From IMG/VR virus record IMGVR_UViG_3300039346_000011: a stretch of 27,612 bases of DNA. One strand, 5' to 3'. The stretch comes from a virus. Lineage: Duplodnaviria; Heunggongvirae; Uroviricota; Caudoviricetes. Numbering within the stretch: position 1 is the first letter of the stretch; every line of letters begins with the position of its first letter. A model generated the notes under the pieces. The model saw nothing but the letters and a program-made list of their open reading frames with translations, had not been told where the DNA came from and did not search any database. The translations under genes and the position numbers were made by a program. Shown in pieces: positions 18,943 through 27,612 of this stretch.

Positions 18943-19517
18943 CAAACGATGATTACATCCGTCTGTTGTCGGCACTGCTGCCGCCCGGTCCGGCGTGGTC
19001 AGCCAGCGATCCGGCGATTGCCGGTGCGGCACAGTCATTAACCCGCGTTCATCAGCGTGCGGATGCCCTGATGCGGGAGCTGGATCCGCGCACCACCACC
19101 GAACTGATAAATCGCTGGGAGCGTCTGTGCGGCCTGCCGGATGAATGTATTCCCGCAGGAACACAGACCCTTCGCCAGCGTCAGCAACGACTGGATGCGA
19201 AGGTTAACCTGGCGGGCGGCATCAATGAGGATTTTTACCTTGCACAGCTTGCTGCCCTGGGCAGACCAGACGCCACCATCACGCGATACGACAAAAGCAC
19301 GTTCACCTGCTCATCGGCCTGTACTGACGCGGTGAATGCGCCGGAATGGCGGTATTACTGGCAGGTCAACATGCCAGCCGCCACCAACAGCACCTGGATG
19401 ACATGTGGCGATCCCTGTGATTCCGCGCTGCGTATCTGGGGCGACACCGTCGTCGAATGTGTGCTTAACAAACTCTGCCCTTCGCATACCTACGTAATTT
19501 TTAAATATCCGGAGTAA
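18933..19517 (+). CDS. Tail protein, Mu gp48-like (YmfQ/DUF2313-like)
   Basis: 194 aa; last baseplate gene before the tail-fibre gene; N-terminus ([18 protein letters not shown]) resembles this family as I recall it. Confidence 0.65.
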
Positions 19518-19520
19518 TCC

Positions 19521-20264
19521 ATGCATCGTATAGACACGAAAACCGCGCAGAAGGATAAGTTCGGCGCGGGTAAGAACGGTTTTACCCGTGGTAACCCCCA
19601 GACAGGCACGCCTGCCACCGATCTGGATGATGACTACTTTGACATGTTGCAGGAAGAACTCTGCAGCGTGGTGGAGGCATCCGGTGCCAGTCTGGAGAAG
19701 GCGCGGCACGACCAGCTGCTTACCGCGCTTCGTGCGCTGCTGTTAAGCCGCAAGAATCCGTTTAGCGATATCAAATCGGACGGCACGGTGAAAACGGCTC
19801 TCGAAAACCTTGGTTTGGGAGAAGGCTCTGCATTACCTGTTGGTGTGCCTGTTCCATGGCCTTCAGCCACACCGCCAACAGGCTGGCTGAAATGCAACGG
19901 TGCGGCTTTTTCTGCTGAAGAATACCCGGAACTGGCAAAGGCTTATCCGACAAATAAATTGCCTGATTTACGTGGTGAGTTTATTCGTGGCTGGGATGAT
20001 GGGCGCGGCGTTGATTCAAGGCGTGCGGTGCTGTCAACACAAGAGCCAACTGTAGGTACTTTTTATGTGGAGCTAGCTATCATCTCGGGAACTTTGAGCG
20101 GCTCAGGTGCTAAATTTACCGATTCAGTAGGGATTGGATCAACCAGTAGTAACATTACCGTTAGCAACGGTAATGACCAGTCCGTGTCGGGTACAGTGGC
20201 CGTTAACCCCGTCGATACCCGTCCACGCAACATTGCATTTAACTATATCGTGAGAGCAGCATAA
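19521..20264 (+). CDS. Tail fibre protein with tail-collar-type C-terminus; constant N-terminal part plus currently joined variable C-terminal part
   Basis: 247 aa; [19 protein letters not shown] and C-terminal [15 protein letters not shown] motifs; the left crossover site lies inside at about codon 93. Confidence 0.8.
19798..19823. repeat. Left crossover site of the invertible segment (gix/hix/pix-like)
   Basis: CTCTCGAAAACCTTGGTTTGGGAGAA; its last 14 bp are the exact reverse complement of the first 14 bp of the right site at 21725..21750, with weaker similarity across the remainder; encodes LENLGLGEG in the fibre. Confidence 0.7.
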
Positions 20265-20866
20265 TGGATAAAGCAATATTAAATAGTGGACTTGTTGCTA
20301 CAAAGGCAGGGGATATTACCGTTTATAACTATGATGGTGAAACTCGGGAATATATTTCCACTTCAAGTGAATATCTTGCCGTTGGTGTTGGTATCCCGGC
20401 ATATTCCTGTCTGGATGCACCAGGTATACATAAGGCGGGTTATGCTATCTGTCGTTCTGTGAATTTAAATTCATGGGAATATGTGCCAGACCATCGCGGT
20501 GAAATCGTCTATAACACCGAAACGGGAGAATCAAAACAAATCACAGCACCGGGTGATTACCCCGAAAATACAACCACTATTGCCCCATTAACGCCATACG
20601 ATAAATGGGATGGTGAGAAATGGGTGACCGATACTGAGGCACAGCATAGCGCCGCAGTAGACGCGGCAGAAGCACAGCGTCAGTCACTGATTGATGCTGC
20701 AATGGCTTCCATCGGTCTGATTCAGCTGAAATTACAGGCCGGACGGAAGCTGATGCAGGCAGAAACAACCCGGCTTAACGCTGTGCTGGATTACATTGAC
20801 GCGGTGACGGCAACAAATACCAGCACAGCGCCGGATGTCATCTGGCCTGAACTGCCGGAGGCGTAG
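20264..20866 (+). CDS. Tail fibre assembly protein (Tfa)
   Basis: 200 aa; TAATG overlap with the fibre gene; C-terminal ...DVIWPELPEA typical of Tfa chaperones. Confidence 0.8.
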   Translation: MDKAILNSGLVATKAGDITVYNYDGETREYISTSSEYLAVGVGIPAYSCLDAPGIHKAGYAICRSVNLNSWEYVPDHRGEIVYNTETGESKQITAPGDYPENTTTIAPLTPYDKWDGEKWVTDTEAQHSAAVDAAEAQRQSLIDAAMASIGLIQLKLQAGRKLMQAETTRLNAVLDYIDAVTATNTSTAPDVIWPELPEA

Positions 20867-21281
20867 GCCATTCAATATCTGGCGCACAGGAAGTATCGAC
20901 CAGTTCCAGTGCGTCCAGATAATCCAGCCACGAATTATATTGCGCCAGTTCCTCGCCTTTCAGACGACCAATAGCAGCTTTGCCAGGCCACTGATGGGTA
21001 TTGATGTAGGTATTGACTTCTGAAACCAAAGATATTTTTTTCATTTCAGCCGTCAACACCTCATCCTCTTTTGAAGGGGGTGGGGAATTAATCCATACTG
21101 GCCGTCCTGAACTGTCAGCGCCAATTTCTTTCCCTTCTGGATGCAGACCAAGAAATTGCTCATATGTTTCTCTGGTAATTTCAATAACATCATCAGGAAG
21201 CGTTCCCGCATCCTCATATTCTGGAAACAATTCTTGCAGATAAAAACTTTTACTTCCGGGTGAAAAGAATACTGAGTTCAT
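20838..21281 (-). CDS. Alternative tail fibre assembly protein (Tfa'), inverted orientation
   Basis: 147 aa on the minus strand, convergent and 3'-overlapping with Tfa; C-terminal ...DIEWPTPPAVQAR Tfa-type. Confidence 0.75.
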   Translation of the reverse strand: MNSVFFSPGSKSFYLQELFPEYEDAGTLPDDVIEITRETYEQFLGLHPEGKEIGADSSGRPVWINSPPPSKEDEVLTAEMKKISLVSEVNTYINTHQWPGKAAIGRLKGEELAQYNSWLDYLDALELVDTSCAPDIEWPTPPAVQAR

Positions 21282-21283
21282 TA

Positions 21284-21750
21284 TTACCGTCCAATGATTA
21301 ACGCTGAGACGCTGGTATCTGAAGGAAAGGCTGCATTCAGTGGTTTGTCGACTTTGAACACAATCGTATTATTCCCCCTGACAGCGGCAAAAGAACAAAC
21401 CGCCGTCGCGTATGAACCTGTAATATTACTGGATACACCACCATAAGCTGTTGTTGATACCAGAGGGATAACGCCCAGCACCTTATTAGGAAATACAAAG
21501 GGCAATGTGGCTGTGGCAATATAAGACTTATTAGAACCTGTGATGGCATAAGCATTATCAGTCATTCCATTCATCGCCACTGGGCCGCTTATACTTACAG
21601 TAACCATCTGAATGATTAGCCCGTCAGGTTGACGAATCACAAAATTTCCATTGCCACCAGTAACCGTCCAGAAAGACATATCAGGGATTTGGTTTTCCCC
21701 GTTGCCCACATTCCGTTTTGCCGCTTCTCCCAAACCAACGTTTATGAAAA
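21284..21750 (-). CDS. Alternative tail-fibre C-terminal module, silent in this orientation
   Basis: Minus-strand frame open from the right crossover site to 21284 (track ORF 21284..21778); encodes ...GLGEAAKRNVGNG... at the site, paralleling LGLGEGSA in the expressed fibre. Confidence 0.6.
21725..21750. repeat. Right crossover site of the invertible segment
   Basis: TTCTCCCAAACCAACGTTTATGAAAA; resembles the enteric Hin/Gin/Pin site consensus as I recall it and is the inverted partner of 19798..19823. Confidence 0.7.
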
Positions 21751-21804
21751 TGCAGAAATAACGAGCAAATGGCATCATTCCTGCTTTTGTCAGGGAGATC
21801 TACC

Positions 21805-21933
21805 ATGCTTATTGGCTATGTACGTGTGTCAACAAATGACCAGAACACAGATCTACAACGTAATGCGCTGAACTGTGCAGGATGCGAGCTGATTTTTGAA
21901 GACAAGATAAGCGGTACAAAGTCCGAGACCTAG
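21805..21933 (+). pseudogene. pin: Serine DNA invertase (Pin/Gin/Hin family), 42-codon N-terminal stub
   Basis: MLIGYVRVSTNDQNTDLQRNALNCAGCELIFEDKISGTKSET then TAG; matches the Pin/Hin N-terminus including the catalytic-Ser context (YVRVST), but full invertases are about 185-190 aa. Confidence 0.8.
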
Positions 21934-21984
21934 GGCTGACACTGCTGTTCTTGATGCAAATTAAAGTATTTAATAGTGAGTAGC

Positions 21985-22004
21985 GGCCTTACTAATGTAA
22001 GGCC
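21985..22004. terminator. Stem-loop between the pin stub and the convergent nuclease gene
   Basis: GGCCTTAC-TAAT-GTAAGGCC perfect 8-bp stem in an AT-rich spacer; no clean U-run on either strand. Confidence 0.35.
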
Positions 22005-22028
22005 ACTATAATCATTTTATTAATTGCA

Positions 22029-23918
22029 TTAATCGTGTTTTGGCCATACTTTCAATGCAATTTCCCCCAACTTTTTACCCCGCTCCAGGATTTCATCCTC
22101 ATCCCATTTATCCTTAACTATAAGTGGAATGTTCAGTCGTAGATTGGTGTGGACGATGAGAGCATCACGTTTTTTCAGAAATACAGCATTCTGAACAGAA
22201 CGGTTTACGCTAAGGTTAAGCAAAGTTAGATTTCCCAAAGTAGATATCGCTTGTTGCCGTTTCCTTACCAGTAGCTGTTCAGGGGTAAGATCGGTTCCAG
22301 ACAGAACAATTTGGTTCAATACCGTAGCATCTGAATTTGTCACCATACGACCATTTTCGAGAGGCCAACAGGAATACCAACTTTGAGGCATAAGATGATC
22401 GATATCGAGATTAGAAAGATTTGGAACATCAGGCTTTTCTGTCTTTACTTGGCGACAAAGTTCTCTTTCAAGTTCCGTTAACATTGAGCGCATTTTCGGT
22501 GCGTCGAGCCTGCCAGGATAAAGTGGAGCATTGATGCAAGCGTTGAGAAATTCTGAGTCACCAGGCCAACGTGAGGCTTCGCCATTTAAGTTATTGAGGA
22601 TATTACGTAACTCAACACTGGAAATTTCCGTTTTAGCCAAGTGCCGCAATACATTCATAAATACATTGTTGTAATTCTTTGGCGTCAGGCCACATACGGC
22701 TCTTCGTACTACGTAGGAGACAAGATCATTATACATGGCTGCTTTCTCATCATCAGCGATGTTAGCTATCGAAATGAACAAAGCAAGCGGATAAAGTGTC
22801 GTCACATCATAGTCTGCGATGCGATATCCAAAGTGTGAGATGGGGGTTGTGCCAAAACCATCAACCAATTCTTTATATTGTGATGCATATTGTTTGAGGC
22901 GCTTTACTTGCAGATCTGCTCGTTGTGAAGACAAGTCCTTACTTACATAATCACGATACTCATTGTAAAGGCGAGACAGATCAATTTCACGTTGCCTTTC
23001 TGATTGCAATGTCGCATGTACTAGCCACTCCATGCGTGGTTTATTAATACGTCCACGGCGTTGTTTTTCCGACCAGTATTTATCTTCAAAGCTCTTCCAC
23101 TCATTTTCATATAATTCAATAGCATTAATATTTTCATGCTCAGCGCACATAAAGATATAGTTGCGAATAAGATCCGTAGCATGAAGTTCCGCCCCTCGCC
23201 CATTTAATGTTTCAAAAATTATTTGGGCATCATCTTCAGCTTCGAGAAATATGCTTACCAGTTTCAGATCTGTTAAGACAGCCTCAATTAGAGCTACAGC
23301 ATTTTCTTGTGGTGAGTGGTTTTCTATTTTAATCCATTTTATAAAGGCTTCAGTAAAAAAACATAATGCTTCTAGTGATGGCGGGTGATTAAAATGCTTA
23401 CGCAACGTACCATGCTGCGTGAAACTATCAGAGAATACGTCCCGGAGATCGTCAATATTTTCAACATTAAAACTTTGAATAAAATGAGTTTGATCCCGAA
23501 AAGTTGGCCACAGTTTGAAGCGTTCTACTTCTTTATTTCGCATTGTGTCTTCGTTTGAGTTTTTCAGGCAAGGCGAAATGAGAGCCTCTAAGCTGGAAAG
23601 ATCCGTAGCACGTAATGCTAATCGGATGGATGCCAGAACATATTGAAGAGTGGTCAATCGTTGCTGACCATCAATAATATGTATGGAATCTACACCTAAT
23701 AATCCTTTTTTTGATTGAGGTTCCAGTACAACCGCACCAAGGAAATGGGGAGTTGGTTTTGTACCCGAGAGCCGGGATTGTACTTTCTCTAGGATATCCT
23801 CCAGTAGAGCTGACCACTGGTCTTGCTGAGTCCATACATAGGCACGTTGATAGAATGGAACACAGTATTGTCGGCGGTCTTGAAAAAGTTGTTGGACAGT
23901 TAGCGTCTCGGATTTCAT
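22029..23918 (-). CDS. DUF262/DUF1524 two-domain nuclease (GmrSD/BrxU/SspE-like type IV restriction-type protein)
   Basis: Track ORF 22029..23978; likely start is the ATG at 23918 (MKSETLTVQQLF...). N-terminal FYQRAYVW and IIDGQQRLTT (DGQQR) motifs; C-terminal DIDHLMPQSW His-Me-finger-like motif; low GC. Confidence 0.8.
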   Translation of the reverse strand: MKSETLTVQQLFQDRRQYCVPFYQRAYVWTQQDQWSALLEDILEKVQSRLSGTKPTPHFLGAVVLEPQSKKGLLGVDSIHIIDGQQRLTTLQYVLASIRLALRATDLSSLEALISPCLKNSNEDTMRNKEVERFKLWPTFRDQTHFIQSFNVENIDDLRDVFSDSFTQHGTLRKHFNHPPSLEALCFFTEAFIKWIKIENHSPQENAVALIEAVLTDLKLVSIFLEAEDDAQIIFETLNGRGAELHATDLIRNYIFMCAEHENINAIELYENEWKSFEDKYWSEKQRRGRINKPRMEWLVHATLQSERQREIDLSRLYNEYRDYVSKDLSSQRADLQVKRLKQYASQYKELVDGFGTTPISHFGYRIADYDVTTLYPLALFISIANIADDEKAAMYNDLVSYVVRRAVCGLTPKNYNNVFMNVLRHLAKTEISSVELRNILNNLNGEASRWPGDSEFLNACINAPLYPGRLDAPKMRSMLTELERELCRQVKTEKPDVPNLSNLDIDHLMPQSWYSCWPLENGRMVTNSDATVLNQIVLSGTDLTPEQLLVRKRQQAISTLGNLTLLNLSVNRSVQNAVFLKKRDALIVHTNLRLNIPLIVKDKWDEDEILERGKKLGEIALKVWPKHD

Positions 23919-24303
23919 GGTATACCTGTAAGCGACATTGTACAAAAGTGAGGAGTTAATCTGATTTAGAACAATCATTTTATTTTGCTATGATACAACG
24001 TATTTGTTACCGATTAAGTAAAAAACGCGTCTGAACGCTGACGTTTTAGGGCTTTACTGGTTATTCTTTCTTATCTCTTCATCATCCCATCGGCATCCTG
24101 TCGAGGTTGTTGACTTGTTGTTATTTATTTTGTCTAGGCGCTGTTTAATTATTATTGATAGAATTGATGGTGAGAGGTGATTGAAACCGTAGGCACGTCG
24201 TTTGCAAGGACGTGCTACGACTGGCTGGTGAACTTCCGATAGTGCGAGTATTGAATGATTTCCTACGTGCTAACTAGTGAACAAACAACTCTTCAGTAGA
24301 CTC

Positions 24304-24521
24304 TCAGGTATCATTCAGAGTTTCCTGAACGAAAGTTTTAGCTCAATCTTTATCTGCAGTATGTCTAACTGAAAAACTATCGTTGCTGGTGGCTTTTACG
24401 ATCATCTCCACATCGTCATAACGCTTGCCAATGTGTTGGGTTAATTCTTCCTTTAACGCGTCCACAGCGCCGTTTGGCATTTGGTCATTTTGTCTTTGGC
24501 TATGGAGATCTCAATACGCAT
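24304..24521 (-). pseudogene. dinI-like gene remnant with a frameshift and an in-frame TGA
   Basis: Minus strand from ATG at 24521 encodes [14 protein letters not shown], then after a 1-nt shift [37 protein letters not shown]..., then TGA at 24345..24343, then ...FVQETLNDT; colinear with DinI as I recall it. Confidence 0.5.
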
Positions 24522-24534
24522 AACACTTCTTTTG

Positions 24535-24582
24535 TACTGCGTTTGTAGACAGTATTATTCTTATCTGTGTAAATAAACAGTA
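24535..24582. promoter_or_regulatory. Two tandem LexA (SOS) box candidates upstream of the dinI-like remnant
   Basis: TACTGCGTTTGTAGACAGTA (24535-24554; CTGC-N8-ACAG) and ATCTGTGTAAATAAACAGTA (24563-24582; perfect CTGT-N8-ACAG). Confidence 0.5.
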
Positions 24583-24722
24583 TCAAGACTTCGTTTTAGC
24601 TGCATAAGAAAAAAGAGATGGATACATTCGGAAAGATTTTGATGGTGGTAGGCTAAGTGAATAGCCTAAAGGTGTTTTACCCCAATTATTCCCCGGTATT
24701 TCTCCGCATAAAAAACAATCAT

Positions 24723-24747
24723 AAAAAAACCAGCCATAATAGGCTGG
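24723..24747 (-). terminator. Rho-independent terminator immediately 3' of the partial tRNA
   Basis: Plus strand AAAAAAA-CCAGCC-ATAATA-GGCTGG; on the minus strand this is hairpin plus U7, 15 nt after the tRNA CCA end. Confidence 0.6.
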
Positions 24748-24762
24748 TTCTTAAGGGATTTT

Positions 24763-24815
24763 TGGTCGGCACGAGAGGATTTGAACCTCCGCCCCCCGAC
24801 ACCCCATGATGGCGA
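24763..24815 (-). tRNA. Partial tRNA-Pro-like gene (3' portion only: anticodon arm, T-arm, acceptor 3' strand, CCA); probable att remnant
   Basis: Minus strand ...CCATCATGGGGTGTCGGGGGGCGGAGGTTCAAATCCTCTCGTGCCGACCA; 3' ~45 nt closely match enterobacterial tRNA-Pro(GGG) as I recall it; no 5' acceptor strand or D-arm follows. Confidence 0.55.
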
Positions 24816-24918
24816 GCTACGATCTTAAGGGCTGTTATGTGCCAGAAACAGAGATTTTTATATTCCTCACTCTGGAAATCATAATGCTAACTAGTAGGGA
24901 TTATAAGTTGTCAATTGA

Positions 24919-25743
<825 letters not shown>

Positions 25744-25797
25744 TTTCGGAATGGAACTGGATTTCATATTGTGGTCAATTTTCGCACATGATGAGAG

Positions 25798-25822
25798 AGA
25801 GCCCGCGATAGTTGGCTCTTTT
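25798..25822 (+). terminator. Rho-independent terminator after the GIY-YIG gene
   Basis: AGAGCC-CGCGATAGTT-GGCTCT followed by TTTT. Confidence 0.45.
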
Positions 25823-25953
25823 GTGCAAAGTCTGACCAATATTTATTCCCCTCACTGGACGTTACACTCAGACTATCCACTGCTGACATGCCAGTGATTT
25901 AAAAGGAATGCTGCTGATTTAAATAGCGAAAACTTCACTAAAGAGGATGTAAA

Positions 25954-26247
25954 ATGACACTACCCAAGTTCAGGAATGACCTACAAGTTGAAGCTAATTA
26001 CTCTATCAATCAAGCCCGTGAAATGGTTGGGAAAACGGTGAAATCTGTCCAGATTGGTTTTCAGAAAACTGGAGTACAGGTTCATCAGACTGAAATGCTA
26101 ATCATCACGTTTACAGATGACACTCAACTTGCCATCTCAACAGGTTCAAACGTTGTAAACATAACGTCGTTAATTGGGCGTGGTGGCAGTTGCGAGCTTA
26201 AGCCTGCGGATTTTCACGTAGATTTTGATTTGACCTGGCAAAGATGA
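25954..26247 (+). CDS. Hypothetical 97-aa protein
   Basis: AGAGGA SD 7 nt upstream of the ATG; no recognisable motif; followed by a GC-rich inverted repeat. Confidence 0.5.
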   Translation: MTLPKFRNDLQVEANYSINQAREMVGKTVKSVQIGFQKTGVQVHQTEMLIITFTDDTQLAISTGSNVVNITSLIGRGGSCELKPADFHVDFDLTWQR

Positions 26248-26254
26248 CAAATCC

Positions 26255-26299
26255 GGCCGTGCCAGCGGCCTTTTTCATGCTCGTCCTGCTGGCACGGCC
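26255..26299. terminator. GC-rich inverted repeat between convergent genes (putative bidirectional terminator)
   Basis: GGCCGTGCCAGC ... GCTGGCACGGCC perfect 12-bp inverted repeat with 21-nt spacer containing TTTTT. Confidence 0.4.
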
Positions 26300-26334
26300 G
26301 CAAACCTAATCCTGTAAGGTGACACTTAAGCGTG

Positions 26335-27123
26335 TCAGAACTGCGCAATAACAACCTTCACTTTTCCTTCCGCGTCTTTAGATTCCAGATCGGTTTTCAC
26401 GCCCAAAGGATTATTTATGTAGCAATCCGGGTCATATACAAACAAGATCAACGTATCGCAGTCTTGGTGAGCGCGGTAGCGCGCCATATCAATAAGCAAC
26501 TCTCCACCAACTTTACCCGCTCCCAGAGATTCACGGGTTTTCTTCACCTCTATCACAATTTTCTCTTTTTTCAAAAGAAAGTCCTGTCTTGAGGCCGCGC
26601 CCGCAAAGCTGGGGGTATACTCTTCCGCCCTAATATCATTAAAATGAAGCGTCAGCAGTGCATAAATCAAATCCTGTACGTCATACTCATCATTAACTTC
26701 AAGCGGCGCACGGCCGTTGTACCGCCTCTTTAACTGGCGAACAAAGGTCGGAAACCTGTTAAGAATATTAAGTACGAGGCTCAGCGGCGAACCTTCTTGA
26801 GGAGTATTAGTACTGACAGCAGAGTGCGCAAGATCATCTCTCGCCGCATCAAACAACGGTTTATAACTTTTGATCAGTGTATTGTAATTAGAAGACCACC
26901 TGCTGTTTACAGTATTGAAGTCATTGTAATAATCAGACTCTTTTCCGTAGCTGTCCTCTATTAACTTTTTCACTCTGGCGATCCAGTTTTTATATTTACC
27001 AGAATCAACATAGGTTTCCATAGTGTGAGTGAGAACGTTCTGCGCAGTATATTTTGTGGAAATGAGCGCATCGTAATCTTTCTCAAGCGCCCTAAATCTT
27101 TCTTCCAGTTGTAGATTTGTCAT
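26335..27123 (-). CDS. Hypothetical protein with C-terminal PD-(D/E)xK-like nuclease motif
   Basis: 262 aa; GGAAGG SD; N-terminal helical region; C-terminal ...EYDVQDLIYALL...RQDFLLKKEKIVIEVKK... has E / D / E-x-K spacing reminiscent of the restriction-endonuclease fold. Low GC. Confidence 0.6.
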   Translation of the reverse strand: MTNLQLEERFRALEKDYDALISTKYTAQNVLTHTMETYVDSGKYKNWIARVKKLIEDSYGKESDYYNDFNTVNSRWSSNYNTLIKSYKPLFDAARDDLAHSAVSTNTPQEGSPLSLVLNILNRFPTFVRQLKRRYNGRAPLEVNDEYDVQDLIYALLTLHFNDIRAEEYTPSFAGAASRQDFLLKKEKIVIEVKKTRESLGAGKVGGELLIDMARYRAHQDCDTLILFVYDPDCYINNPLGVKTDLESKDAEGKVKVVIAQF

Positions 27124-27495: not shown

Positions 27496-27612
27496 TGAAC
27501 CGCCCCGGGTTTCCTGGAGAGTGTTTTATCTGTGAACTCAGGCTGCCAGATCATCGTTTCCGATGGAAGCATAATAAGCTTTTTCTGCTTCTGCCGGAGG
27601 AGTATGGCCCAG
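27496..27612 (-). mobile_element. IS3-family insertion sequence (IS629/IS1203-like), terminal 117 bp: inverted-repeat end plus 3' end of transposase orfB; element continues past window end
   Basis: Plus strand TGAACCGCCCCGGGTTTCCTGGAGA from 27496 shares TGAACCGCCCCGG-N3-TCCTGGAGA with the terminus at 94; same orientation as the left copy. Confidence 0.75.
27538..27612 (-). CDS. IS3-family transposase OrfB, C-terminal fragment (truncated by window edge)
   Basis: Minus-strand frame from the window edge encodes ...LGHTPPAEAEKAYYASIGNDDLAA then stop (plus TCA at 27538-27540), just inside the inverted repeat. Confidence 0.6.
   Translation of the reverse strand: MGHTPPAEAEKAYYASIGNDDLAA

What the first reader, a model, noticed from the sequence alone, without database searches (positions are those of the whole stretch)
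19798..21933. Tail-fibre inversion switch with identifiable crossover sites, apparently locked by invertase truncation
The 26-bp sites at 19798-19823 and 21725-21750 are inverted copies sharing a perfect 14-bp arm (TTGGTTTGGGAGAA). They flank the fibre variable part + Tfa and an oppositely oriented Tfa' + alternative fibre module. With the cognate invertase reduced to a stub, the host-range switch can only flip if an invertase is supplied in trans.
Basis: seen in the sequence. Interest (0 to 1): 0.55.

Follow-up and report, generated by a model that had tools for sequence, protein, structure and literature searches.

The report
Orphaned tail-fibre switch that still flips
This is an ordinary phage DNA switch that swaps the tip of a tail fibre; its own flipping enzyme has been destroyed, but genome comparisons and a published PCR test show it still flips, most likely using an enzyme borrowed from another prophage.

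Summary
Two 26-bp crossover sites (19798-19823, 21725-21750) lie in inverted orientation. They share a perfect 15-nt arm and bracket a 1.93-kb cassette: fibre tip + Tfa on one strand, Tfa' + alternative tip on the other. Inverting it in silico gives a second in-frame fibre. The adjacent pin-type invertase keeps only about 42 codons. A type IV restriction gene (GmrSD/DUF262) replaces the rest.

"Locked" is wrong. Among complete E. coli genomes with exactly this stub junction, about 108 have the window orientation and about 23 the flipped one, both at 100% identity. UTI89 and IHE3034 differ by the flip plus 1 SNP in 39 kb. A flanking marker shows all four allele/orientation combinations, so there were at least two flips. 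The PCR primers published for a "2.9 Mb prophage inversion" seen in UTI89 cultures (PMC6458436) map onto this cassette.

The likely driver is a Din-family invertase acting in trans. UTI89 has an intact Gin-like one (78% identical to PinE) in a P2-like prophage at 0.92 Mb. The stub still covers the position of the Fis enhancer, by homology only.

This is an e14 P-segment variant of a known kind, and only moderately interesting.

The parts
19521..19809 (+). Constant N-terminal part (Sc) of the tail fibre, with its start codon. It lies outside the invertible segment.
   Evidence: Residues 1-105 are 95% identical to the N-terminus of K-12 e14 StfP/YcfK. The reading frame continues across site L in both orientations.
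19798..19823 (+). Left crossover site (pix-type, 12-2-12): CTCTCGAAAACC TT GGTTTGGGAGAA. It encodes ...ENLGLGE... inside the fibre gene.
   Evidence: Same layout as Mu gixL, TTATCCAAAACC TC GGTTTACAGGAA. The arm is the same as the e14 P-segment repeat quoted in PMC12529663.
19811..21737 (.). Invertible segment (about 1.93 kb) between the two core dinucleotides.
   Evidence: The in-silico inversion of 19810-21738 is found at 100% identity and 100% coverage in about 23 complete genomes. The window orientation is found in about 108.
19521..20264 (+). Fibre as expressed in the window orientation (247 aa): Sc plus a tail-collar tip related to e14 StfE.
   Evidence: Pfam Collar, E 1.2e-15. 60% identity to the translated e14 stfE pseudogene.
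20264..20866 (+). Tail-fibre assembly chaperone for the expressed tip (TfaE-like, 200 aa).
   Evidence: Pfam Caudo_TAP, E 4.4e-30. RefSeq gene name tfaE.
20838..21281 (-). Alternative chaperone Tfa' (147 aa), silent in this orientation.
   Evidence: Pfam Caudo_TAP, E 5.9e-28. After inversion it follows the alternative fibre directly.
21284..21736 (-). Alternative fibre tip Sv', with no promoter or start of its own in this orientation. After inversion it fuses in frame to Sc and gives a 245-aa fibre.
   Evidence: in-frame fusion. Weak match to Gp53-like_C, E 5e-5, below the Pfam cut-off. RefSeq annotates the fused protein WP_000554664.1 in flipped genomes. Unrelated to the e14 StfP tip.
21725..21750 (+). 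Right crossover site: TTCTCCCAAACC AA CGTTTATGAAAA. It is inverted relative to the left site.
   Evidence: It lies 67 nt upstream of the invertase start codon, the same spacing as Mu gixR to gin.
21805..21933 (+). Pin-type serine invertase pseudogene: the first 41-42 codons, including the catalytic Ser in YVRVSTNDQ, then a stop.
   Evidence: Pfam Resolvase N-terminal, E 2.9e-9. Alignment to intact pinE of K-12 and of strain 90-1 breaks at about 21926, with degenerate similarity to about 21955. No 3' part of pin in 42.7 kb around the locus.
21826..21889 (.). Inferred position of the Fis-dependent recombinational enhancer, wholly inside the retained stub.
   Evidence: Inference by colinearity with hin, gin and pin. 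The Hin enhancer is 65 bp, about 100 bp from hixL, with the AT-rich ATTTA and TAATG motifs between the two Fis sites (PMC3798978). Here the candidate Fis-site centres lie 95.5 and 144.5 bp from the site R centre, with ATCTA...TAATG between them. The Fis core sequences are recalled from memory of hin. Not tested functionally, and there is no excess synonymous conservation.
22029..23978 (-). GmrSD/DUF262 type IV restriction gene that occupies the place of the missing invertase 3' part.
   Evidence: Pfam GmrSD_N and GmrSD_C. PADLOC mREase_IV, 1415 bits. The junction is identical in all roughly 130 genomes that carry it.

Best explanation
The region is a Din-family (Pin/Gin/Cin/Hin-type) invertible tail-fibre cassette. 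It is a variant of the e14 P segment and belongs to an e14-related, roughly 40-kb contractile-tail prophage integrated next to ssrA in E. coli of the ST95/B2 type.

How it works:
- A serine invertase cuts both 26-bp sites at their central dinucleotide (TT/AA) and rotates the 1.93-kb segment.
- The constant 5' part of the fibre gene is thereby joined either to a tail-collar tip with the TfaE-like chaperone (the window state) or to a second tip with its own chaperone.
- The element's own pin gene was destroyed once, at about codon 42, when a GmrSD type IV restriction cassette replaced its 3' part.
- The cis elements survive: both sites and, by positional homology, the Fis enhancer in the retained 5' stub.
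- The segment therefore keeps flipping whenever a compatible Din invertase is present in the cell, from another prophage or an infecting phage.

In UTI89 the obvious donor is the intact Gin-like invertase of the P2-like prophage next to serS.

Shown: the anatomy, the in-frame alternative fibre, the single truncation event, both orientations in nature, at least two flips, and a published PCR assay on this segment.
Inferred: who catalyses the flip, and that the stub acts as an enhancer.
For: Anatomy
- Site and ORF layout.
- Colinearity of site, 67-nt spacer and invertase 5' end with K-12 pinE, Mu gin and two P2-like invertases.
- Truncation point.

Not locked
- Window orientation in about 108 complete genomes and flipped orientation in about 23, all with the same stub/GmrSD junction at 100% identity.
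- UTI89 (window orientation) and IHE3034 (flipped) are identical over 18.5 kb on the left and differ by 1 SNP over 20.4 kb on the right.
- Four-gamete pattern with the flanking gene allele. WP_000154253 is found in APEC O1 (flipped) and S88 (window orientation). WP_000154254 is found in N1 and IHE3034 (flipped) and UTI89 (window orientation).
- PMC6458436 reports mate-pair and PCR detection of a prophage inversion at 2.9 Mb in UTI89, also in control cells. Its three primers map to window 18960-18979(+), 20658-20677(-, inside the segment) and 22523-22542(-).

Trans donors
- UTI89 carries an intact 199-aa invertase, 78% identical to PinE, with its own gix-like sites at 0.919 Mb.
- In the 57-genome panel, genomes with this gene are 5 flipped and 5 window orientation; genomes without it are 6 flipped and 41 window orientation. 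Fisher p = 0.017, not corrected for phylogeny.
- PinQ-like genes occur in S88, MS7163 and FY26.
- Cross-activity is established. PinQ, PinR and PinE all invert the e14 P segment, which has the same repeat. PinE inverts the Mu G segment and the Salmonella H segment. A pinE pinQ double mutant is locked (PMC12529663).
Against: - No experiment here or in the literature I read links a specific invertase to this segment.
- Three flipped genomes (PMV-1, and the clone pair GN06489/GN06758) have no pinE-, pinQ- or gin-like sequence detectable by blastn on their chromosomes. For them a lost, plasmid-borne or transient donor has to be assumed.
- Counting any detectable invertase rather than the gin-like one, the association with orientation is not significant (8/30 vs 3/27 flipped, p = 0.19).
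- The enhancer assignment rests on positional homology only. Synonymous-site conservation in nt 19-90 is no higher than in the rest of the gene.
- I could not see the PCR gel of PMC6458436, only the authors' statement. Its figure legend and main text label the panels inconsistently.
Confidence: 0.8

Rival explanations
1. Locked relic. After the invertase was truncated the segment froze. The two orientations seen in genomes are inherited states with no ongoing inversion.
For: The cognate invertase is non-functional. About 82% of genomes share one orientation. About half of the carrier chromosomes have no detectable Din or PinQ homologue, so in those strains the switch may indeed be static at present.
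Against: A truncation happens on one molecule in one orientation, yet both orientations carry the identical junction. The four-gamete pattern needs at least two flips. UTI89 and IHE3034 differ by the flip on a background of 1 SNP in 39 kb. Inversion was detected within UTI89 cultures with primers specific for this segment (PMC6458436).
Confidence: 0.05
2. The inversion is produced by host homologous or illegitimate recombination between the 15-20-nt inverted arms, with no site-specific recombinase.
For: Any crossover inside the identical 15-nt arm gives a product indistinguishable from the site-specific one. Some flipped genomes show no invertase homologue.
Against: A 15-nt perfect repeat is far below the length needed for efficient RecA-dependent exchange (established knowledge). 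In K-12 the e14 P segment, which has the same repeat, is reported locked in a pinE pinQ double mutant (PMC12529663). Detection by mate-pair sequencing of a bulk UTI89 culture implies a sizeable sub-population (PMC6458436). Orientation is mixed 5:5 where a Gin-like invertase is present and 6:41 where it is absent.
Confidence: 0.07
3. The two orientations arose by horizontal replacement of the fibre module between related prophages (recombination with a flipped, pin-intact relative), not by inversion in place.
For: Fibre modules are mosaic. P2-like and e14-like prophages share this cassette at about 89-94% identity. The second tip is unrelated to that of K-12 e14.
Against: The flipped genomes are 100% identical to the window-derived flipped construct across the whole 2.7 kb, while the pin-intact relatives are only about 94% identical. 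The flanks are identical on both sides. This does not explain inversion within one culture (PMC6458436).
Confidence: 0.03

Closest known systems
e14 P segment with PinE (E. coli K-12 cryptic prophage e14)
   Same: The constant fibre part is the same (95% identity over 105 aa). The crossover arm TTGGTTTGGGAGAAG is the same. One module is shared: an StfE-like tail-collar tip plus TfaE. The gene order ymfQ - fibre - tfa | tfa - fibre' - pin - restriction gene is the same. The e14 P segment is also known to be flipped in trans by PinQ and PinR (PMC12529663).
   Different: Here pin is cut to 42 codons. The second module (tip and chaperone) is unrelated to StfP/TfaP. The downstream restriction gene is GmrSD instead of McrA. 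The host element is a near-complete 40-kb prophage at ssrA, not the 15-kb e14 remnant at icd.
Phage Mu G segment with Gin (also P1 C segment with Cin)
   Same: The architecture Sc | Sv U - U' Sv' | invertase is the same. Both have 26-bp 12-2-12 sites with AAACC NN GGTTT. The 67-nt spacing from the site centre to the invertase start is the same, and the 5' coding region is colinear.
   Different: The core dinucleotide differs (TT/AA vs TC/GA). The fibre proteins differ. Mu has an intact invertase.
Trans inversion between elements: Fin (Fels-2) acting on the Salmonella H segment; PinQ/PinR acting on e14
   Same: An invertase encoded in one prophage flips a segment in another element (PMC12529663).
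   Different: In those cases the target still has its own invertase gene. Here the target is fully dependent on outside enzymes.
P2-like prophage fibre inversion cassettes (strain N50; phage 'P2' from O157:H43 T22; UTI89 0.92 Mb prophage)
   Same: Homologous tfaE-type cassette and pix-like site in N50. A Mu-G-like cassette with an intact Gin-like invertase in UTI89.
   Different: They sit in a different phage backbone and have intact invertases. They are candidate donors rather than the same element.
Shufflons (Rci tyrosine recombinase, multiple sfx sites)
   Same: They also vary the C-terminus of a surface or adhesin protein by DNA inversion.
   Different: Only two sites are present here. The remnant is a serine recombinase, not Rci. 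There is a single segment, not a multi-segment array.

Membership tests
Din-family DNA inversion system (Gin/Cin/Pin/Hin) | Two 26-bp crossover sites in inverted orientation, each made of two 12-bp half-sites around a 2-bp core | tested here: met
   Sites at 19798-19823 and 21725-21750. Half-sites match TTCTCNNAAACC at 8-10 of 10 specified positions. There is no third site. Layout compared with Mu gix.
Din-family DNA inversion system (Gin/Cin/Pin/Hin) | Identical core dinucleotide in both sites, read in the inverted sense, so that the staggered ends can be religated | tested here: met
   Core TT at 19810-19811 and AA at 21737-21738, whose reverse complement is TT.
Din-family DNA inversion system (Gin/Cin/Pin/Hin) | Intact serine invertase gene next to one site | tested here: not met
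   Only 42 codons remain, then a stop. No 3' part within 42.7 kb. RefSeq annotates it as a pseudogene.
Din-family DNA inversion system (Gin/Cin/Pin/Hin) | Fis-dependent recombinational enhancer in cis, normally in the 5' part of the invertase gene about 100 bp from a site | tested here: inconclusive
   The homologous interval (about 21826-21889, 95-145 bp from the site R centre) is retained and colinear with gin and pin. Position and size are taken from PMC3798978. There is no extra synonymous conservation. Function cannot be tested with these tools.
Din-family DNA inversion system (Gin/Cin/Pin/Hin) | Both orientations occur, and each gives a complete reading frame | tested here: met
   In-frame 247-aa and 245-aa fibres. 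About 108 vs about 23 genomes. Published PCR in culture (PMC6458436).
e14 P segment (pix sites) | StfP-type constant region and the pix repeat TTGGTTTGGGAGAAGG | tested here: met
   95% identity over residues 1-105. 15 of the 16 nt of the published repeat are shared by both arms.
e14 P segment (pix sites) | Cargo StfP/TfaP versus StfE/TfaE | tested here: not met
   Only the StfE/TfaE-like module is shared. The other tip has no similarity to StfP beyond the site-encoded NxGLGE. This is therefore a variant, not the same segment.
Shufflon | Multiple (more than 2) sfx repeats and an Rci tyrosine recombinase | tested here: not met
   Two sites only. The adjacent remnant is a Resolvase-type serine recombinase.

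The most novel reading that the evidence does not exclude
The cassette is not simply decaying. It is kept as a 'client' switch, with both sites and the enhancer-bearing 5' stub preserved while the enzyme gene was given up for a restriction gene. Its state is then set by whichever Din invertase is in the cell, whether from a co-resident P2-like or lambdoid prophage or from an infecting Mu- or P1-like phage. Following the PinQ/e14 precedent, the flipped fibre products could serve the host, for example by blocking receptors against other phages, rather than the prophage.
Probability: 0.25. Interest if true: 0.55.

Novelty: new member of a known kind. Interest (0 to 1): 0.3.

Why it matters
It corrects a natural annotation reflex, namely that a pseudogenised invertase means a frozen switch. 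An invertible cassette can outlive its own recombinase and stay phase-variable through enzymes from other mobile elements. Prophages in one cell are then coupled: gaining or losing a P2-like prophage would start or stop variation in a different prophage's fibre. For the ST95 pathogens (UTI89, IHE3034, S88, APEC O1) it explains a published but uninterpreted inversion at 2.9 Mb. It also explains why otherwise identical assemblies differ at this locus. The underlying mechanism is textbook, so the gain is in interpretation rather than principle.

Tried and rejected
1. Second informative marker. I built a chimeric query carrying the APEC O1 allele at L001 18763 joined to the window-orientation junction. 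No genome had that combination, so the SNP is private and uninformative.
2. S88's adjacent P2-like prophage as donor. It has a plain H-G fibre and no invertase.
3. The aroA-linked prophage invertase class (GN04171) as the UTI89 homologue. UTI89 has no prophage there.
4. A pinH-like fragment upstream of the prophage. It is absent in UTI89.
5. N50's P2-like invertase as the ST95 donor. It is widespread (741 genomes) but did not show up in UTI89 or IHE3034.
6. Independent sequence evidence for the enhancer. Synonymous-codon conservation between pinE and the gin-like or P2-like genes shows no excess in nt 19-90.
7. A local inversion having displaced the pin 3' half. tblastn finds none in 42.7 kb.
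8. Identifying the source genome. No complete E. coli genome has the IS/holin junction of the window.
9. Technical point. Loci fetched in the same turn as other calls, or after another fetch without an intervening script, did not reach the script machine. Several comparisons were therefore made from annotation tables (protein accessions) rather than from full alignments.
10. The review of DNA invertases (PMC4384473) is not held. The exact Fis core positions are therefore from memory.
Full report
WHAT IS THERE

The window is a prophage that is 99.97% identical to one lying next to ssrA in E. coli UTI89, S88, IHE3034, APEC O1 and ATCC 11775. It is a roughly 40-kb element with an integrase, e14-type regulators (ymfK/T/L), lysis genes, an HK97-type head, a Mu-like contractile tail and baseplate (gp44-48 homologues, YmfQ), and a short tail fibre.

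The arms are 19805-19824 and 21724-21743, 20 nt with one mismatch. The perfect core TTGGTTTGGGAGAAG is 15 nt and is never matched in shuffled sequence.

Read as 26-mers, both sites have the 12-2-12 layout of Din-family crossover sites. Site L is CTCTCGAAAACC TT GGTTTGGGAGAA and site R is TTCTCCCAAACC AA CGTTTATGAAAA. For comparison, Mu gixL is TTATCCAAAACC TC GGTTTACAGGAA and gixR is TTCCTGTAAACC GA GGTTTTGGATAA. The two other AAACCNNGGTTT-like hits in the window lack the half-site flanks (4-6 of 10 against 8-10 of 10), so there are exactly two sites.

THE CASSETTE

The left site lies inside the fibre gene and encodes ENLGLGE. Upstream of it is a constant part that is 95% identical to the N-terminus of K-12 e14 StfP. 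Between the sites lie:
- a tail-collar tip related to e14 StfE, with a TfaE-like chaperone, on the plus strand;
- a second chaperone and a second, unrelated tip on the minus strand.

Inverting 19810-21738 in silico fuses the constant part in frame to the second tip. This gives a 245-aa fibre followed directly by its chaperone. It is the Sc | Sv U - U' Sv' arrangement of the Mu G segment and the e14 P segment.

THE INVERTASE

The centre of the right site lies 67 nt upstream of the start of a pin-type serine invertase gene, the same spacing as in Mu. The gene matches intact pinE of K-12 and of a close relative (strain 90-1) with only a few mismatches up to about window 21926. It then hits a stop. 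Some degenerate similarity continues to about 21955. Unrelated DNA follows, leading into a convergently oriented GmrSD/DUF262 gene.

No 3' half of pin exists within 42.7 kb. PADLOC scores the replacing gene as a type IV methyl-directed restriction enzyme at 1415 bits. The next genes are a PD-T4-3 homologue and a PD-(D/E)XK nuclease. In K-12 e14 the same position after pinE holds mcrA. In strain 90-1 an intact pinE is followed directly by the PD-T4-3-like gene. The simplest reading is that turnover of defence cargo at the prophage end clipped the invertase gene.

IS IT LOCKED? NO

I searched 5,426 complete E. coli genomes with the window sequence 19400-22100 and with the same sequence after in-silico inversion.
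- The window form is present over its full length in 110 genomes, 108 of them at 99% identity or better.
- The flipped form is present at 99-100% identity over all 2,701 nt, including the stub and the junction to GmrSD, in about 23 genomes. These include IHE3034, APEC O1, FDAARGOS_1303, MS20655 and several N- and GN-series isolates.

A truncation occurs on one DNA molecule in one orientation. The shared junction with two orientations therefore means the segment inverted after the truncation.

UTI89 and IHE3034 are identical over 18.5 kb to the left of the segment and differ by one SNP over 20.4 kb to the right. The segment itself is exactly inverted.

The chromosomal gene just beyond the integrase end of the prophage has two alleles. 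WP_000154253 occurs in APEC O1 (flipped) and S88 (window orientation). WP_000154254 occurs in N1 and IHE3034 (flipped) and in UTI89 (window orientation). All four combinations exist. Barring recombination or recurrent mutation at the marker, at least two inversions took place within this young lineage.

EXPERIMENTAL EVIDENCE ALREADY IN THE LITERATURE

A study of structural variation in UTI89 cultures by mate-pair sequencing (PMC6458436) reported two inversions inside prophages. One was next to a phage invertase 'pin'. They were validated by PCR and were also present in control cells. The supplementary legend places the UTI89 inversions at 0.9, 2.1 and 2.9 Mb.

The three primers listed for the 2.9 Mb inversion map to window 18960-18979(+) in ymfQ, 20658-20677(-) inside the segment in tfa, and 22523-22542(-) in the GmrSD gene. 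This is a classic three-primer orientation assay for exactly this cassette. The authors did not comment on the truncated invertase. I could not see the gel, only their statement. The text and the legend label the panels inconsistently, and one printed primer has an extra base.

WHO FLIPS IT?

I used queries made of a locus-specific anchor plus invertase sequences. The number of matching places per chromosome then reports extra invertase homologues in the same panel of carrier genomes.
- Many carriers have none detectable by blastn. Examples are ATCC 11775, ExPEC XM, FDAARGOS_1295-1298, PMV-1 and GN06489/GN06758.
- S88, MS7163, FY26 and others have a pinQ-like gene.
- UTI89, NU14, IHE3034, MS20655, GN05064 and others have a pinE-related gene elsewhere.

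Guided by the 0.9 Mb inversion in PMC6458436, I found that gene in UTI89. A P2-like prophage next to serS carries a Mu-G-like fibre cassette with gix-like sites and an intact 199-aa invertase. The invertase is 78% identical to PinE and nearly identical to Mu gin at its 5' end.

In the 57-genome panel, genomes with this gene are 5 flipped and 5 in the window orientation. Genomes without it are 6 flipped and 41 in the window orientation (Fisher p = 0.017, not corrected for shared ancestry). An even split is what a freely flipping segment would give in consensus assemblies. Counting any detectable invertase, the association is not significant (p = 0.19).

Cross-activity within the family is established. 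PinQ, PinR and PinE all invert the e14 P segment, which has the same repeat. PinE inverts the Mu G segment and the Salmonella H segment. Fin acts on the H segment. A pinE pinQ double mutant is reported as locked (PMC12529663). That last observation also argues against host homologous recombination across the 15-nt arm as the mechanism.

THE STUB AS A POSSIBLE CIS ELEMENT

Din invertases need a Fis-bound enhancer in cis. For Hin it is 65 bp long and lies on the hin gene about 100 bp from hixL. It has two Fis sites at its ends and the AT-rich motifs ATTTA and TAATG between them (PMC3798978; PMC9368917).

The stub is colinear with hin, gin and pin across this interval. Candidate Fis cores are centred 95.5 and 144.5 bp from the site R centre, with ATCTA...TAATG between them. 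Both lie inside the retained 122-126 nt. All known cis requirements therefore appear to have survived the truncation.

This is inference. The core positions come from my memory of hin, and synonymous sites in this interval are no more conserved than elsewhere in the gene. PMC12529663 reports that the single pinE deletion mutant of K-12 is also locked. That fits loss of a cis enhancer, but it fits equally well with PinE being the main enzyme.

COMPARISON AND VERDICT

The region works like, and by its sites and architecture belongs to, the Din-family tail-fibre switches. It is closest to the e14 P segment. It shares with it the constant region, the crossover arm and one of the two modules. It differs in the second module, in the downstream restriction gene, and in having lost its invertase. 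It fails one membership criterion, an intact adjacent invertase, which makes it an orphan member rather than a different kind of system. It is not a shufflon.

The mechanism is textbook and the inversion itself has been seen before. The added value is the link between that published inversion, the truncated invertase and trans-acting invertases of co-resident prophages.

LIMITS

- Searches for other invertases were at the DNA level and per chromosome, so plasmid-borne or very divergent enzymes would be missed.
- The phylogenetic argument rests on one biallelic marker and five genomes.
- The source genome of the window is not among the complete genomes, so its own invertase content is unknown.
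- In that genome the prophage is also bracketed by IS3-family elements, one of which interrupts the holin gene. Virion host range may therefore be irrelevant there.

Noticed in passing
window 1-91 and 27496-27612: Both window ends are termini of IS3-family (IS629/IS1203-like) elements on the minus strand. The left end is the inverted repeat plus the start of orfA (MTKNTRFSPEVRQ). The right end is the other inverted repeat plus the C-terminus of orfB. They bracket 27.4 kb of prophage as direct repeats. The left copy interrupts the holin gene, which is intact in UTI89 and S88. No complete E. coli genome in the collection has this junction.
   Followed up: partly
window 22029-27123: The stretch between the invertase stub and ssrA is a small defence island: GmrSD/mREase_IV (22029-23978, -), a PD-T4-3 GIY-YIG homologue (24937-25743, +) and a PD-(D/E)XK nuclease-like gene (26335-27123, -). 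It sits at the same prophage-end position where K-12 e14 carries mcrA after pinE.
   Followed up: partly
L018 (UTI89 NC_007946.1) 38975-43596: UTI89 has a second fibre inversion cassette, of Mu-G type, in a P2-like prophage next to serS. It has gix-like sites (L018 39628-39653 and 42307-42332) and an intact 199-aa Gin-like invertase. This is the published '0.9 Mb' inversion.
   Followed up: yes
L008 (APEC O1) 37130-39020; MS20654 and N66: The GmrSD gene is itself decaying in some carriers. APEC O1 has a 1-nt insertion that frameshifts it. IS3 insertions lie in or next to it in MS20654 and N66.
   Followed up: no
L009 (S88) 42966-49401 and L013: S88 has a P2-like prophage inserted between this prophage and ssrA, giving tandem prophages at one tmRNA site. 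Its fibre region is not invertible and it encodes no invertase.
   Followed up: yes
window 21926-21955: Just past the stop of the stub, about 25 nt still resemble the RPGLKKLL-coding part of pin genes, with a 1-nt gap and several substitutions. The true deletion breakpoint may therefore be near 21955, with a frameshift at codon 42, rather than a clean cut at 21926.
   Followed up: partly
PMC6458436, Fig. S1 legend and Table S2: The paper's text assigns the prophage inversions to panels D and E, but the legend's coordinates (0.9, 2.1, 2.9 Mb) imply panels D and F. The printed primer CGCTTGCAATCAATGCTCCAC has one extra A relative to the genome.
   Followed up: yes
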